Positions 1 through 3,007 of a stretch of DNA of 3,007 bases are shown here, piece after piece. The notes beneath the pieces were generated by a model. It was not told where the DNA came from and did no database searches. It saw nothing but the letters and a program-made list of their open reading frames with translations. A program made the position numbers and the translations under genes. Numbering within the stretch: the stretch's first letter is position 1; each line of letters starts with the position of its first letter. This DNA is from Naegleria gruberi (taxonomy: Eukaryota), in the NCBI GenBank assembly GCA_000004985.1, contig GG739238.1; one strand, written 5' to 3'.

Positions 1-147
1 CAAATCCAGATCAATAGCGACATTTGTAATTCCAGAATGGAGCTCCTCGATTTGGTGGCCTCTACTCTTAAAGCTATTAAAGAAGAGAAAAAGTATCACA
101 AGAAGGAGAAACGGATAGGTACATTTTGGACTGAACAAGCAAAATAA
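1..147 (+). CDS. 3' end (48 codons) of an ORF entering from upstream; unknown product with a K/E-rich tail
   Basis: Frame 1 is open from position 1 to TAA at 145-147 and reads QIQINSDICNSRMELLDLVASTLKAIKEEKKYHKKEKRIGTFWTEQAK*. No motif recognised. It could be the end of a host gene or of an upstream element ORF. Confidence 0.3.
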   Translation, partial: QIQINSDICNSRMELLDLVASTLKAIKEEKKYHKKEKRIGTFWTEQAK

Positions 148-476
148 GCAAGGACGTACAAATTGATTTTGGATGTCCAAAAACTTGTTAAGGTAAAATT
201 AAGATTTGTCCAAAAAGTTTGTTTATGAGTTTTTAATGAGTAAATCATTGAAAAATCACAATTAAATACCTAATAAGTGGAAATGATCAATGAAACTCCA
301 CTTCTCCTGTTTTTATTGTCATTTCTTTGTTGGATTTGTTGCTGGAGAATTTTTTTTCTTGAATTTGTCCTCAACATCTCTTGAATTGAATCTTTCGAGC
401 ATCATTAAAAGCACAAACAAAATGTTGCTGGCCTGTTTGTTTAAGGGTGGGCTAGCAAATTGATGTTGAACGTTCA

Positions 477-518
477 AAATGGACGTGTTGGTCCAGAGAT
501 TTTCTGGGCGTCCAATAA
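477..518. repeat. Copy A of a ~42-bp imperfect direct repeat containing palindrome TGGAC-gtgttg-GTCCA (480-495)
   Basis: aatggacgtgttggtccagagattttctgggcgtccaataat aligns to 558-598 aatggacatgttcgtccaaaatgtttctggaccaacaattt at roughly 75% identity. The 5-6-5 inverted repeat is conserved in both copies. Confidence 0.6.
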
Positions 519-557
519 TCAGTAAGCAAAATACGTTTGGGCCGTATTATTTATCTT

Positions 558-598
558 GAATGGACATGTTCGTCCAAAATGTTTCTGGACCAACAATT
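558..598. repeat. Copy B of the ~42-bp direct repeat containing palindrome TGGAC-atgttc-GTCCA (561-576)
   Basis: See copy A. The palindrome arms TGGAC/GTCCA are perfect, and the shared flank is (A)AAT ... TTTCTGG. Confidence 0.6.
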
Positions 599-668
599 TG
601 TATTTTGGACGACATAATGTACCTATCTGTTTCTCAAGGATGCTTTTAATCAAACCATTATCCGAATT

Positions 669-1394
669 ATGGAACAAATTCGAAGGAACGACGTTCATAA
701 TTGCTCATCTGGATGGAAACTTATACTTCAAACCAGAGATTTAGGGATGTTGGTTTCGATTAAGGAAGAAACCTTCAAACTTTACACTAGAAACTATAAT
801 GGTTTCTTATGGTTTATTACTGCATTCAATATTTCAATGGATGACACTTATGCTATTGAGTATTATGCAGCTTATCTTACAATTCAAGGTCAAACATCTC
901 GTGTTGAAGCCTTGAGACCATCCCTTCAATTTTGGGCCAATATTGAGAGAAGAGTTTTTCCAATTTCATGGTCTTATGATAAGATTAAAAGAGGAATTAT
1001 TTTTATTTGGTCCTTGATTGATAGAAAAGCTTTGAAACGTGATCCAATTTTCTATCATCATATTGAAGGTTTCATTCAGAGAAAAGATCATTATGATCCT
1101 TTCATTTTCAAACTCACTAGTGCCATGTTAGTCATTGGTTTCAGACTTTTCGCTAGACCAGGTGAATTAGCTAGACTCAAGTGGTGTTATGTTACAAAGC
1201 TTAGAAATGGTAACATCAAATTAGATCTCAGTGGTCACAAAACAGATTTCTTTCTACTAGAAAAGCCGATGACTATTGACAAGCATCTTGAAAATCCTTT
1301 AGTGTGTCCAGTGAAATTGCTTTTTGATTACATGTCTAATTCTGAGCGAAGTGAAGAATGGACTTGTTTTCATTGTAAACTTAATAAAATATAA
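669..1394 (+). CDS. Tyrosine recombinase-like protein (core-binding-like N-terminus plus first half of the catalytic domain; C-terminal HxxR / Tyr half absent). Possibly truncated or a pseudogene.
   Basis: 241-aa ORF. The frame is closed upstream by TAA at 615-617 and has A at -3 of the ATG. TYAIEYYAAYLTIQGQTSRVEALRPSLQFW resembles the YR N-terminal core-binding/SAM-like helix pattern. LVIGFRLFARPGELARLKWCYV matches box I (G-x-R-x-x-E-L-x-x-L-x-W, catalytic Arg-I). NIKLDLSGHKTDFFLLEKP fits the beta-hairpin Lys segment. CPVKLLFDY matches the CPVxALxxY(L) motif seen in phage-integrase, DIRS and Crypton YRs. The ORF ends 18 aa later (TAA 1392-1394), and the downstream frames up to 1523 contain no HxxR...Y pattern. 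Confidence 0.5.
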   Translation: MEQIRRNDVHNCSSGWKLILQTRDLGMLVSIKEETFKLYTRNYNGFLWFITAFNISMDDTYAIEYYAAYLTIQGQTSRVEALRPSLQFWANIERRVFPISWSYDKIKRGIIFIWSLIDRKALKRDPIFYHHIEGFIQRKDHYDPFIFKLTSAMLVIGFRLFARPGELARLKWCYVTKLRNGNIKLDLSGHKTDFFLLEKPMTIDKHLENPLVCPVKLLFDYMSNSERSEEWTCFHCKLNKI

Positions 1395-1429
1395 GTTGAG
1401 TATTTTTCCATGCTCAAAAAATTATCACA

Positions 1430-2518
1430 ATGGCCCCAACACCAACTACACCAAAGAACAACAAGAAAACGAAAGACCTTAGCTCACCTTCTGCAGGTAG
1501 CGAGCAACGAGTCATTGTTCTAACTCCTTCCACCTCAAATTCTTCTGATAGTTCTGCTATGCCTTCACCTCCTCCTGTTCAAGACACAAAGAAGAACAAG
1601 AAGAACAATCAACAAAAGATATCACCTGGCAAAGACTCAAACAACGCCAAGGTTGGTTCACAAGGTGCTTCTGCTCTCGCTTCTTCGATGGAATTGTTTG
1701 AGTCCAACCCATCTGAAGAGGTTTCTGGTAAAAGAGCAAGAGTTGCTGATGAACCAGATGATTGGTTTAAAAACCACGTCATCGACTCTTACCAAAGAAT
1801 GTTTGGTGAGTCATTGAAAGAAGATTTGCCGTTGGAAGAAGCTGTTTCTCTTCTATTCGAAACAGCCAATGCTCCATACGCTGACAACTTGGAATTCAAG
1901 AATAGAATGGCTGCTCTTGAATTGTTGTTCAGAAAAGAAGTAGACACTCCCATTCCAGATTCATCTGGTATAAAAGATATTAAAAGTAAAGGTTATTCTT
2001 TACTTTTAACAAACTCTTTTATCATCTCTCAAATCTGCAAGCGTTTGAGAGAGAGTGATACCCTTGATTTACCGCTTATTCTTCAAGGATTTGAATTTAT
2101 TCAGAATATTTCTGAGTTAAATCTAGTCTGTATTCGAATGGGCATTAAAAATGGCTTTGAAGCAGCTGAAAACTTCTCTAACAGCTACAAATCAGGAGGT
2201 TCACTTGACCAAATCACCTCCAAACAACAAGAGAAGGCGATTAAATCTGCTGAAAAAGTAAAAGCAGCAGAAACCATTGAAAAAGTCAGCAAATGGGCAA
2301 GCAGAACCCCTAATTTTCGTAAGTTCCCCACTAGATACGATAATAGACAAGCTGGTTACAACAACTACAACAACAACAACCACAACAACAACAACTTCAA
2401 CCAAGGACAAGGTAATAGTTACCAATCCAACAATCAAGGCTTCAGAAGATTCAACAATGCTCACCAAGCAAGTGGAACCGCTTCAAATTCCTCCAACTCA
2501 AACAACAACAATAAATGA
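1430..2518 (+). CDS. Gag-like structural protein candidate. It has a low-complexity S/P/K-rich N-terminus, a central ordered segment, a K/E-rich segment and an Asn/Gln-rich C-terminal tail. There is no CCHC zinc knuckle.
   Basis: 362-aa ORF with A at -3 of the ATG and yeast-like codon use. It lies immediately upstream of, and overlaps by 257 nt, an RT-encoding ORF in the +1 frame, which is the typical gag-pol arrangement. No recognisable catalytic or zinc-finger motif, so the gag assignment is positional. A host N-rich gene abutting the RT cannot be excluded. Confidence 0.5.
   Translation: MAPTPTTPKNNKKTKDLSSPSAGSEQRVIVLTPSTSNSSDSSAMPSPPPVQDTKKNKKNNQQKISPGKDSNNAKVGSQGASALASSMELFESNPSEEVSGKRARVADEPDDWFKNHVIDSYQRMFGESLKEDLPLEEAVSLLFETANAPYADNLEFKNRMAALELLFRKEVDTPIPDSSGIKDIKSKGYSLLLTNSFIISQICKRLRESDTLDLPLILQGFEFIQNISELNLVCIRMGIKNGFEAAENFSNSYKSGGSLDQITSKQQEKAIKSAEKVKAAETIEKVSKWASRTPNFRKFPTRYDNRQAGYNNYNNNNHNNNNFNQGQGNSYQSNNQGFRRFNNAHQASGTASNSSNSNNNNK
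2360..2401 (+). repeat. Imperfect (AAC)n trinucleotide repeat, 14 units with 3 variant units
   Basis: aac aac tac aac aac aac aac cac aac aac aac aac ttc aac encodes NNYNNNNHNNNNFN in the gag frame and poly-Thr in the pol (+1) frame. The antisense strand gives a spurious poly-Val ORF (2201-2467, minus). Confidence 0.8.
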
Positions 2519-3007
2519 TGCCAACATTCCTCTTGGTGGTCGTCTCTCTCGTTTTCACAGCCGATGGCAAGAATTCGGTGTTTCCAACACGATTCACGAT
2601 TGGATTCAAAACGGAATTCCAATAGATTCCGATTCAAATCGTTGGAAAAATTACCATCAGAGGAAATTCTCTACTACAGAGAAACAATGGATCCAAAAAG
2701 AGATTGGTTCCATGTTGAAAGAAGGAGTAATTGTTCACTCCCCAAACATCGTTATCAACCCTATAAACGTAGTTCCAAAGAAAGGGTCAGACCAATTCAG
2801 ATTCATTTTGGATCTAAGAAAGGTCAACGATGGAATAGATCCAGATTCCTTCAAAATGGAATCAGTGCAGAAAATCATGAAATTCCTATGCAAAGGAATG
2901 TGGGCATGCAAAATAGACCTAAAGAAAGGTTATTTTCACGTTCCCATCAAGGAGGAACATCAACACCTCCTAGGGTTCATATTCGAAGAAGAATTCTACC
3001 AATTTAC
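2457..3007 (+). CDS. Pol ORF, 5' partial: reverse transcriptase N-terminal region and RT domains 1-3, DIRS/Ngaro/gypsy-type. It continues beyond the window.
   Basis: Frame 0 is open from 2262 (stop TAA at 2259-2261) to the window end, with its first ATG at 2457 (A at -3). Translation: ...MLTKQVEPLQIPPTQTTTINDANIPLGGRLSRFHSRWQEFGVSNTIHDWIQNGIPIDSDSNRWKNYHQRKFSTTEKQWIQKEIGSMLKEGVIVHSPNIVINPINVVPKKGSDQFRFILDLRKVNDGIDPDSFKMESVQKIMKFLCKGMWACKIDLKKGYFHVPIKEEHQHLLGFIFEEEFYQF. Recognised motifs: GGRLxxFxxxW...W(I)xxG(I)xIxF pre-RT motif; VPKKxGxxRxIxDLRxLN (RT domains 1/2); IDLKKGYFHVPI (RT motif A with the catalytic Asp); LxFxxxxxxYQF preceding the expected LPFG. There is no protease (D-T/S-G) motif anywhere in the open frame between 2262 and the RT. 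Confidence 0.85.
   Translation, partial: MLTKQVEPLQIPPTQTTTINDANIPLGGRLSRFHSRWQEFGVSNTIHDWIQNGIPIDSDSNRWKNYHQRKFSTTEKQWIQKEIGSMLKEGVIVHSPNIVINPINVVPKKGSDQFRFILDLRKVNDGIDPDSFKMESVQKIMKFLCKGMWACKIDLKKGYFHVPIKEEHQHLLGFIFEEEFYQF

What the first reader, a model, noticed from the sequence alone, without database searches (positions are those of the whole stretch)
2262..2518. Gag/pol overlap of 257 nt with pol in the +1 frame; first pol ATG at 2457
Gag (frame 2) ends at TGA 2516-2518. The RT frame (frame 0) is open from 2262, so pol is +1 relative to gag, as in Ty1/Ty3-type programmed +1 frameshifting. Alternatively pol is initiated independently at ATG 2457, which has good context (A at -3) and lies 25 codons upstream of the conserved GGRL motif. 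Independent initiation would suit an element lacking a protease to process a Gag-Pol fusion, as in hepadnaviruses and possibly DIRS. No canonical Ty1 (CTT-AGG-C) or Ty3 (GCG-AGT-T) heptamer was seen in the overlap.
Basis: partly seen in the sequence, partly recalled or inferred. Interest (0 to 1): 0.55.

Follow-up and report, generated by a model that had tools for sequence, protein, structure and literature searches.

The report
Gag stop doubles as recoding site
In a Naegleria gruberi DIRS1-like retrotransposon the reverse-transcriptase gene sits one base forward of gag in every related lineage found, and the evidence favours ribosomes changing frame at the gag stop codon itself, a codon that is also the only stop between gag and the recombinase gene far downstream.

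Summary
Gag (1430-2518) ends at TGA 2516. The pol frame is open from 2262. ATG 2457 is the only pol-frame ATG in the overlap.

The +1 arrangement is not a defect of this copy. It recurs in five lineages: window/L011, L012, L001, L002/L013 and L003.

- The 257-nt overlap is what the Asn-rich gag tail gives by chance (85% of synonymous shuffles do as well).
- ATG 2457 is not conserved in position, is absent in one lineage, is expected by chance (39%), and lies behind 11 upstream ATGs.

What is conserved is the gag stop. It is always TGA and always overlaps the same pol Asp codon (xxT GAY). Conserved pol sequence begins at that Asp, 6-9 codons before GGRL. Three lineages share AAT AAA TGA.

Not noticed before: the gag frame reopens after this TGA and stays stop-free across all of pol (0 stops against 8-32 expected), running into the tyrosine recombinase.

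Best model (about 45%): a +1 frameshift at the UGA makes Gag-Pol. Readthrough, or restart at the conserved ATG 2564, serves the recombinase frame. No stimulatory RNA structure was found, and nothing has been tested experimentally.

The parts
1..1335 (+). 3' part of a different, older DIRS-like element. It holds a pol C-terminus (frame mod 3 = 1, ending at the stop at 742-744) and the N-terminal two-thirds of its tyrosine recombinase (frame mod 3 = 0, about 636-1335). The recombinase is cut off before the HxxR and Tyr motifs.
   Evidence: tblastn of ORF 669-1394 against the L002 recombinase: 36% over 222 aa, E = 4e-51. Only about 85% nucleotide identity over 35 nt to the recombinase of L011, so it is another family. 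The pol tail 'SELWNKFEGTTFIIAHLDGNLYFKPEI*' matches the pol end of L002.
106..635 (.). About 530-bp insertion bounded by 23-nt inverted termini, inside the older element. It looks like a miniature DNA transposon and may be flanked by AAG on both sides.
   Evidence: Inverted repeat I1, arms 106-128 and 613-635, 91% complementary. Removing it joins the flanks into a reading frame that aligns with the N-terminal recombinase frame of L002; this was judged by eye.
1336..1429 (+). 5' end and leader of the focal element.
   Evidence: L002 and L013 are 99.4% identical copies at different loci, and their homology begins at CTAATTCT, which corresponds to window 1336. Homology of the window to L012, L013 and L002 starts at 1330-1336.
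1430..2518 (+). gag ORF (362 aa), ending in an Asn/Gln/Gly-rich tail (about 2345-2515) with a conserved G-F-R-R-F-N-N motif.
   Evidence: 99% identical to N. gruberi XP_002668143.1. The tail motif is conserved in P0009, L001, L002 and L003.
2262..2516 (+). Pol frame open upstream of the gag stop. It reads as Thr-rich low complexity, the mirror image of the AAC-rich gag tail. It is probably not translated in this frame.
   Evidence: Shuffle tests. No codon periodicity in either frame between the window and L012.
2457..2459 (+). Only pol-frame ATG in the overlap. Its position is not conserved among relatives.
2510..2519 (+). AAT AAA TGA T: the gag stop and the proposed recoding site. The +1 reading is ..K|GAT GCC.. 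= D-A-N-I-P-L-G-G-R-L.
   Evidence: TGA lies at the same pol Asp codon in all five lineages. AAT AAA TGA is identical in window/L011, L012 and L002/L013; L001 has AAT AGA TGA and L003 has AAT GGC TGA.
2517..3007 (+). Conserved pol (N-terminal GGRL region and the start of the RT domain). It runs off the window end.
   Evidence: 60-71% aa identity to L002 and L003, with pol-frame codon periodicity. RVT_1 match. Relatives P0001-P0004.
2519..3007 (+). Continuation of the gag frame (called 'X' here). It is stop-free, overlaps pol in pol's -1 frame, and in relatives is continuous with the tyrosine-recombinase ORF.
   Evidence: Stops observed against expected under synonymous shuffling of pol: window 0 vs 8.2, L002 0 vs 31.9 (open for 901 codons into the recombinase), L003 0 vs 9.2, L011 0 vs 28.2; no shuffle did as well (0 of 2000-3000). 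X amino-acid identity is only 33-46%.
2564..2566 (+). First ATG of the gag/recombinase frame after the gag stop, 16 codons downstream. It is formed by xxA TGG, where TGG is the conserved pol Trp.
   Evidence: Present 16-17 codons after the TGA in all seven loci.

Best explanation
The window holds the 5' half of a DIRS1-like tyrosine-recombinase retrotransposon of Naegleria gruberi, inserted into an older DIRS-like element. Its coding plan uses two frames. Frame 0 carries gag, a single UGA, a long stop-free spacer (X), and then the recombinase. Frame +1 carries pol (RT/RNase H/methyltransferase-like), whose conserved sequence starts at the gag UGA. Proposed mechanism: most ribosomes terminate at AAU-AAA-UGA and release Gag. 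A minority shift +1 while the UGA sits in the A site and read GAU (Asp) as the next codon. This gives a Gag-Pol fusion whose joint lies 6-9 residues before the GGRL motif. The site works like the antizyme or yeast OAZ1 site (a stop codon in the A site) or the Euplotes AAA-stop site, not like the Ty1 or Ty3 heptamers. The same stop is the gate to the recombinase frame, entered either by UGA readthrough or by restart at the conserved AUG 16 codons downstream. X is kept free of stops only so that ribosomes can reach the recombinase. Shown: the frame relationships, their conservation, the position of the stop, the stop-free X frame, and the lack of constraint on the X protein sequence. Inferred: that a frameshift happens at all, that it happens at the UGA, and how the recombinase frame is entered.
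For: (1) Pol is +1 relative to the gag tail in five lineages with gag identity down to 25%. The 99%-identical copy L011 differs in the overlap only by an in-frame 3-nt indel. (2) The gag stop is TGA at the same pol Asp codon in all five, and pol conservation begins there. AAT AAA TGA is identical in three lineages whose gag tails are otherwise about 46% identical. (3) The upstream overlap and the ATG need no selective explanation. (4) Leaky scanning to ATG 2457 is implausible, with 11 ATGs upstream of it. (5) The gag frame is stop-free across pol, 0 against 8-32 expected and no shuffle (0 of 2000-3000) doing as well, in four loci and in the distant L004. X shows no amino-acid constraint, which fits a frame kept open for ribosome passage. 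The stop-free state reaches right up to the TGA (product of chance probabilities 0.013). (6) More distant single-ORF relatives (P0070, P0109, P0128) carry an R/G/F-rich tail directly in front of GGRL, so a fusion at this joint exists naturally. (7) There is no protease domain and no room for one.
Against: There are no experimental data. The P-site codon is not conserved (AAA, AGA, GGC), so tRNA re-pairing in +1 cannot be the common mechanism. No conserved or unusually stable RNA structure lies 3' of the stop (consensus -3.2 kcal/mol; window z = -0.17), and there is no Rfam match. The fixed position of the stop could follow simply from the conserved Asp codon plus the lack of any back-up stop downstream. 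The only lineage without a pol-frame ATG (L001) is a degenerate copy. In L002 and L013 the gag body lies in the pol frame, separated from it by TAA ACA TAA, and this model does not explain that. The N-terminal parts of the single-ORF relatives show no detectable homology to this gag.
Confidence: 0.45

Rival explanations
1. Pol is translated on its own from an internal start in the overlap (ATG 2457 here). This could happen from a subgenomic transcript, by internal ribosome entry, or by backward re-initiation after gag termination, as the first reader proposed by analogy with hepadnaviruses.
For: Four of five lineages have at least one pol-frame ATG in the overlap. ATG 2457 has A at -3. Gene callers start many DIRS-like pol proteins 7-25 residues before GGRL. 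DIRS proteins can act in trans (PMC7192593), so a fusion is not strictly required.
Against: The ATG positions are not homologous (20, 50, 25, and 52/48/2 codons before the Asp), and L001 has none. Chance alone gives an ATG in 39-83% of shuffles. Eleven ATGs precede 2457, so scanning ribosomes would not reach it. The pol-frame sequence upstream of the stop is low complexity with no pol-frame periodicity. No promoter or transcript evidence is available.
Confidence: 0.22
2. A +1 (or -2) frameshift occurs at a hungry-codon site somewhere inside the overlap, for example at CGT AAG TTC CCC ACT AGA TAC (2318-2338), and not at the stop.
For: The pol frame is open for 48-89 codons before the stop in all lineages. 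In L003 this is somewhat longer than codon shuffling of the tail predicts (P = 0.023; 0.19 with synonymous shuffling).
Against: In the window the open stretch is explained by composition. There is no Ty1 or Ty3 heptamer. No motif in the tail is conserved across lineages. In L002 and L013 the pol frame opens downstream of the spot homologous to 2318-2338. Conserved pol sequence starts only at the stop.
Confidence: 0.13
3. The frame difference is a disabling mutation of this copy or family, and pol is not expressed from it.
For: Many N. gruberi DIRS-like copies are degenerate (PMC3266345). L001, L011 and L013 each carry indels in pol. The annotated N. gruberi gag models are truncated.
Against: The same +1 relation with the same stop position is seen in five lineages that diverged to 25-60% protein identity. 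Pol is intact for 620 codons in L002, and stop avoidance is strongly maintained in the overlapping frame.
Confidence: 0.03

Closest known systems
DIRS1-like tyrosine-recombinase retrotransposons (Dictyostelium DIRS-1 and relatives), including their 'long ORF overlap' between pol and the recombinase ORF
   Same: The gene set matches: gag, RT, a Dam-like methyltransferase domain and a tyrosine recombinase, with no protease or DDE integrase. The recombinase ORF overlaps pol extensively, and the catalytic part lies at the non-overlapping 3' end (description in PMC3266345). DIRS1-like sequences were already reported in N. gruberi but were judged too degenerate to analyse.
   Different: Here the recombinase ORF overlaps the whole of pol. 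It is in the same frame as gag and is separated from it by a single conserved UGA. None of the papers I could read describes that, or how the three ORFs are translated. The terminal repeats (ITR/ICR) could not be examined.
+1 frameshift sites with a stop codon in the A site: antizyme (UCC-UGA-U), yeast OAZ1 (GCG-UGA-C), Euplotes AAA-UAA/UAG (recalled from my own knowledge, not from tool output)
   Same: A 0-frame UGA lies at the point where the conserved +1 product begins. In three lineages the P-site codon is AAA, as in Euplotes. The next +1 codon is always GAY.
   Different: No 3' pseudoknot or stem-loop was detected. The P-site codon varies (AAA, AGA, GGC). The product would be a retrotransposon Gag-Pol fusion. 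The 0 frame also continues beyond the stop.
Ty1 and Ty3 Gag-Pol +1 frameshifting
   Same: A retrotransposon Gag-Pol made by a +1 shift. Ty3/Gypsy RT is the closest RT clade to DIRS (PMC3266345).
   Different: The Ty1 and Ty3 heptamers are absent. The slow A-site codon would be a stop and not a rare sense codon. There is no protease to process the fusion.
Gammaretrovirus (MuLV-type) gag-pol stop-codon readthrough (recalled from my own knowledge)
   Same: A single stop separates gag from a long in-frame downstream ORF (gag-UGA-X-recombinase). A residues at -1 and -2, and C at +4 in three of five lineages, are contexts generally regarded as leaky.
   Different: The in-frame downstream ORF encodes the recombinase, reached through a roughly 600-codon unconstrained spacer, and not pol. 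No downstream pseudoknot was found.

Membership tests
DIRS1-like retrotransposon (order DIRS) | Ty3/Gypsy-related reverse transcriptase | tested here: met
   RVT_1 at E = 8.2e-20 (71.8 bits, cut-off 29.6) on L002 pol. The window fragment scores 22.3 bits, below the cut-off, because it is truncated. 8663 relatives were found with E <= 0.001.
DIRS1-like retrotransposon (order DIRS) | Tyrosine recombinase in place of a DDE integrase | tested here: met
   The ORF downstream of and overlapping pol in L002 hits Phage_integrase at E = 1e-4 (22.5 bits, below the cut-off of 27.1) and carries LARPGDL...GHKTD...GHSLR motifs. The focal copy in the window ends before this region.
DIRS1-like retrotransposon (order DIRS) | Methyltransferase-like domain after RNase H (separates DIRS1/PAT from Ngaro/VIPER) | tested here: inconclusive
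   Dam (PF05869) at E = 6.3e-5, 23.1 bits against a cut-off of 28.1, on L002 pol residues 484-574.
DIRS1-like retrotransposon (order DIRS) | Inverted terminal repeats plus an internal complementary region (as opposed to the split direct repeats of PAT/Ngaro) | not testable with these tools
   No complete element was recovered. Only the 5' end could be mapped, at about 1336.
DIRS1-like retrotransposon (order DIRS) | No aspartic protease between gag and RT | tested here: met
   The gag stop lies 6-9 codons before the conserved GGRL start of pol. No protease family was hit.
Programmed +1 ribosomal frameshift at a stop codon (antizyme/Euplotes type) | A 0-frame stop at the point where the conserved +1-frame product begins | tested here: met
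   TGA overlaps the first conserved pol codon (GAY) in five lineages.
Programmed +1 ribosomal frameshift at a stop codon (antizyme/Euplotes type) | Conserved shift-site sequence | tested here: inconclusive
   AAT AAA TGA in three lineages, AAT AGA TGA in one and AAT GGC TGA in one.
Programmed +1 ribosomal frameshift at a stop codon (antizyme/Euplotes type) | Stimulatory RNA structure 3' of the site (antizyme) | tested here: not met
   RNAalifold consensus -3.2 kcal/mol with no convincing covariation. MFE z-score -0.17 for 2513-2640. No Rfam hit.
Programmed +1 ribosomal frameshift at a stop codon (antizyme/Euplotes type) | Demonstrated trans-frame protein | not testable with these tools
   This needs proteomics, ribosome profiling or a reporter assay.
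Ty1/Ty3-type +1 frameshift | CUU-AGG-C or GCG-AGU-U heptamer | tested here: not met
   0 matches in the window.
Independent pol initiation (hepadnavirus-like) | Conserved pol-frame start codon upstream of the conserved pol domain | tested here: not met
   ATG positions are not homologous and one lineage has none. Chance expectation is 39-83%.

The most novel reading that the evidence does not exclude
One UGA codon is decoded in three ways on a single retrotransposon mRNA. Termination gives Gag. A +1 frameshift gives Gag-Pol. Readthrough gives Gag-X-recombinase. X is about 600 codons overprinted on pol and is under selection only to contain no stop. This would explain the long-unexplained 'long ORF overlap' of DIRS1-like elements as a translational corridor that lets a protease-less element, with one mRNA, deliver ribosomes to its 3'-most gene.
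Probability: 0.2. Interest if true: 0.85.

Novelty: new variant of a known kind. Interest (0 to 1): 0.6.

Why it matters
In none of the papers I could search or read is it described how DIRS-order retrotransposons, which have no protease and three overlapping ORFs, translate pol and the recombinase from one transcript. The purpose of the long overlap between pol and the recombinase ORF is also unexplained there. This family gives a compact, conserved and testable answer: a 10-nt site (AAU AAA UGA U) where pol begins in +1 and the recombinase frame continues in 0. If confirmed, it would add a +1 frameshift at a stop codon to the known routes to Gag-Pol. It would also be a first recoding site in a heterolobosean, as far as the searched papers show. 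Finally, it would be an example of an overprinted frame kept open purely as a ribosome corridor. If it is not confirmed, the result is still useful: the 257-nt overlap and ATG 2457 are compositional by-products.

Tried and rejected
1. Exact look-ups of the window gag and of the N. gruberi proteins P0005, P0006 and P0160 found no contig on record, so other copies in the reference genome could not be read.
2. P0001 also has no contig on record.
3. The third homology search, with a gag profile, was swamped by low-complexity words and added only P0158.
4. The metagenome scan returned mostly plant Ty3/Gypsy elements (L005-L010), which are irrelevant. The viral-contig scan found nothing.
5. An HMM of this gag did not detect the N-terminal regions of the single-ORF relatives, so their status as gag is inferred from position only.
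6. Termination-reinitiation for pol was rejected. The ATGs overlapping the stop in the window (2515, 2518) are in the third frame, and only L003 has a pol-frame ATG next to the stop.
7. A short intron that would fuse the frames (GTAATA at 2411) was considered and dropped: it would be only about 30 nt long and is not conserved.
8. An alternative genetic code (TAA/TAG as sense codons) was considered for the TAA ACA TAA of L002 and dropped, because the gag, pol and recombinase ORFs contain no other in-frame stops.
9. Codon-position substitution counts in the overlap (window against L012) show no periodicity in either frame, so they cannot tell which frame is read there.

Full report
**What the window is.** The gag ORF of the finding (1430-2518) is 99% identical to an N. 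gruberi 'predicted protein' (XP_002668143.1). It is 87% identical to a second one (XP_002669638.1). The frame downstream of gag is a reverse transcriptase. I recovered related contigs from metagenomes:
- L011, 99.1% identical to window 1389-3007.
- L012.
- L001, a degenerate copy.
- L002 and its 99.4% copy L013, which sits at another locus.
- L003, the most distant, with gag 25% and pol 57% identical.

L002 shows the full gene order. It has gag, then pol with RVT_1 (8e-20) and a Dam-like methyltransferase domain (6e-5, below Pfam's cut-off). A tyrosine recombinase follows (Phage_integrase 1e-4; GHSLR motif). This is the DIRS1-like plan. Piednoel et al. 2011 had detected such sequences in N. 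gruberi but found them too degenerate to analyse (PMC3266345).

**Check of the observation.** All coordinates are right:
- The gag stop is TGA 2516-2518.
- The pol frame is open from 2262, after TAA 2259.
- The overlap is 257 nt and pol is +1.
- ATG 2457 is the only pol-frame ATG in the overlap, with A at -3.

The Ty1 and Ty3 heptamers are absent.

**Is it specific to this copy?** No. In window/L011, L012, L001 and L003 the gag tail is in frame f and pol is in f+1. In L002/L013 the Asn-rich tail and pol have the same relation. L011 differs from the window in the overlap only by an in-frame 3-nt indel in the AAC repeat.

**What is chance and what is not.**
- The gag tail is Asn/Gln/Gly/Ser-rich, and its codons rarely create +1-frame stops.
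- With the gag protein fixed and synonymous codons permuted, 85% of shuffles keep the +1 frame open for at least 85 codons.
- Shuffling the last 120 codons gives 54%. The length of the overlap therefore carries no information.
- The Thr-rich pol-frame reading there is the mirror image of AAC repeats.
- A pol-frame ATG in the overlap is expected in 39% (window) to 83% (L003) of shuffles.
- The real ATGs lie 20, 50, 25, and 52/48/2 codons before the conserved Asp, and L001 has none.
- Eleven ATG triplets, starting with a well-placed gag ATG, precede 2457. Scanning ribosomes would not reach it.

**What is conserved.** The gag stop is TGA in every lineage, and it overlaps the same pol codon pair, xxT GAY:

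| Lineage | Sequence at the gag stop |
|---|---|
| Window and L011 | AAT AAA TGA TGC |
| L012 | AAT AAA TGA TGC |
| L002 and L013 | AAT AAA TGA CAA |
| L001 | AAT AGA TGA CGA |
| L003 | AAT GGC TGA CTC |

Read in +1, the next codon is always Asp. Recognisable pol conservation (D-x-x-(x)-x-P-L-G-G-R-L...) starts there, 6-9 codons before GGRL. The nine bases AATAAATGA are identical in three lineages whose gag tails are otherwise only about 46% identical in protein.

After TGA 2516 the gag frame has no further stop to the end of the window. The table compares observed stops in that frame with the number expected when the synonymous codons of pol are shuffled. No shuffle did as well as observed (0 of 2000-3000) in any locus.

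| Locus | Pol codons | Stops observed | Stops expected |
|---|---|---|---|
| Window | 163 | 0 | 8.2 |
| L003 | 252 | 0 | 9.2 |
| L011 | 560 | 0 | 28.2 |
| L002 | 620 | 0 | 31.9 |

- In L002 the frame runs on for 901 codons into the recombinase domain.
- So gag and the recombinase ORF are one frame interrupted by a single UGA, and pol is nested in +1.
- The overprinted stretch, which I call X, has no Pfam match.
- X evolves like an unconstrained alternative frame. Substitutions follow pol's codon periodicity (pol position 3 at 0.45-0.57 per site, as high as position 3 in gag).
- X protein identity is 33-46%, against 60-71% for pol. Selection seems to act only against stops.
- An ATG in this frame lies 16-17 codons after the UGA in all loci. 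It is formed by the conserved pol Trp codon preceded by an A.
- The 15-16 codons between the UGA and that ATG are also stop-free. The product of the chance probabilities over lineages is 0.013, which is weak support because the lineages are not independent.
- The distant, GC-richer DIRS-like contig L004 shows the same plan with no stop at all after its Gly/Lys/Phe-rich gag-like tail (0 stops against 12.7 expected).
- The older element at the left of the window also has pol at +1 relative to its recombinase frame.
- Long pol/recombinase ORF overlaps are known in about half of DIRS1-like elements (PMC3266345). None of the papers I could read explains them or says how pol and the recombinase are translated.

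**Mechanism.** The best-supported reading is a +1 frameshift at the gag stop. With UGA in the A site, termination is slow enough for a fraction of ribosomes to take GAY as the next codon, which gives Gag-Pol. Points in favour:
- The site is conserved.
- Conserved pol sequence begins exactly there.
- There is no selected start codon.
- There is no protease.
- Single-ORF relatives (P0070, P0109, P0128) have an Arg/Gly/Phe-rich tail running straight into GGRL. Their N-terminal parts are not detectably homologous to this gag.

The same UGA gates the recombinase frame, either by readthrough or by restart at ATG 2564. A residues at -1 and -2, and C at +4 in three lineages, are contexts I recall as leaky.

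Points against:
- The P-site codon varies (AAA, AGA, GGC), so tRNA re-pairing cannot be general.
- No conserved or stable 3' structure was found and there is no Rfam hit.
- The fixed stop position could be explained by the conserved Asp plus the absence of any back-up stop.

I put this model at about 0.45. Independent initiation is at about 0.22, a shift elsewhere in the overlap at about 0.13, and a dead copy at about 0.03. The remainder is unassigned.

**Unexplained.** In L002 and L013, two loci from two samples, the gag body lies in the pol frame and ends at TAA ACA TAA. The Asn-rich tail is one base back. A single indel near 'AKLS' would account for it. Yet the element kept an intact pol and transposed or was duplicated afterwards. 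It may be mobilised in trans, as DIRS-1 proteins can be (PMC7192593).

**Surroundings.**
- The focal element starts at about 1336. L002 and L013 homology begins at CTAATTCT, and the window's homology to relatives starts at 1330-1336.
- Everything to the left is a different DIRS-like element. Its recombinase gene was cut at that point, so 'ORF 669-1394' is a chimera.
- That older element in turn carries a roughly 530-bp insertion with 23-nt inverted ends (106-635).

**Verdict.** The most likely site is the stop codon itself. This is a new variant of known kinds (a +1 recoding site at a stop codon; DIRS1-like ORF overlap). It offers a testable hypothesis for an open question about how DIRS elements express their genes.

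Noticed in passing
window 106-635: About 530-bp insertion with 23-nt inverted termini (GAGAAACGGATAGGTACATTTTG / CATAATGTACCTATCTGTTTCTC, 91% complementary). It has internal copies of a TTTGGACGT/ACGTCCAAA-like motif and possibly an AAG duplication at both flanks. It interrupts the pol/recombinase overlap of the older element and looks like a miniature inverted-repeat transposon.
   Followed up: partly
window 1-1335 joined to 1336 onward: The focal element is inserted into the recombinase gene of a different DIRS-like family (36% aa identity between the two recombinases). As a result, ORF 669-1394 is a chimera of a truncated recombinase and the 5' leader of the focal element ('EEWTCFHCKLNKI'). 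Nesting of DIRS elements in one another is reminiscent of the DIRS-1 clusters in Dictyostelium.
   Followed up: partly
L002 1000-1060; L013 1340-1400: Two 99.4%-identical copies at different loci, from different samples, share a gag body that is in the pol frame and ends at TAA ACA TAA. The Asn-rich tail is in the -1 frame. This could be a single inherited indel in a still-mobile lineage, or a different recoding arrangement.
   Followed up: partly
L004 1-1240: A distant, GC-richer DIRS-like contig in which the gag-like ORF (tail GGFKGGFKGSFKGGWKGGRGKG) continues with no stop at all in the -1 frame of the RT for more than 300 codons (0 stops against 12.7 expected). This suggests the two-frame plan is widespread and that the gag stop is optional.
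   Followed up: partly
window 1980-2009: A perfect 12-bp hairpin (TTAAAAGTAAAG / CTTTACTTTTAA, 6-nt loop) lies on the most conserved gag motif, IKSKGYSLLL. It is extended by an outer stem (-15.2 kcal/mol for 54 nt). It is identical in L011 but only weakly present in L012, L002 and L003.
   Followed up: partly
N. gruberi proteins XP_002668143.1, XP_002669638.1, XP_002668677.1: Three annotated 'predicted proteins' of N. gruberi are gag genes of this element. Their models diverge from the window after residues equivalent to about 2343 or about 2255, so those copies are interrupted or mis-modelled. In L011 the gene caller annotated the overprinted X ORF (1173-2903) instead of pol.
   Followed up: no
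window 2345-2515 and relatives: The gag tail is a low-complexity Asn-rich domain with a conserved aromatic/basic core (QGFRRFNN; GRRTFNS; GRKFNNNN; QPFQRRPYNN). It occupies the position where retroviral Gag has its nucleic-acid-binding zinc knuckles. More distant relatives have RGG/FKGG-type tails there.
   Followed up: no
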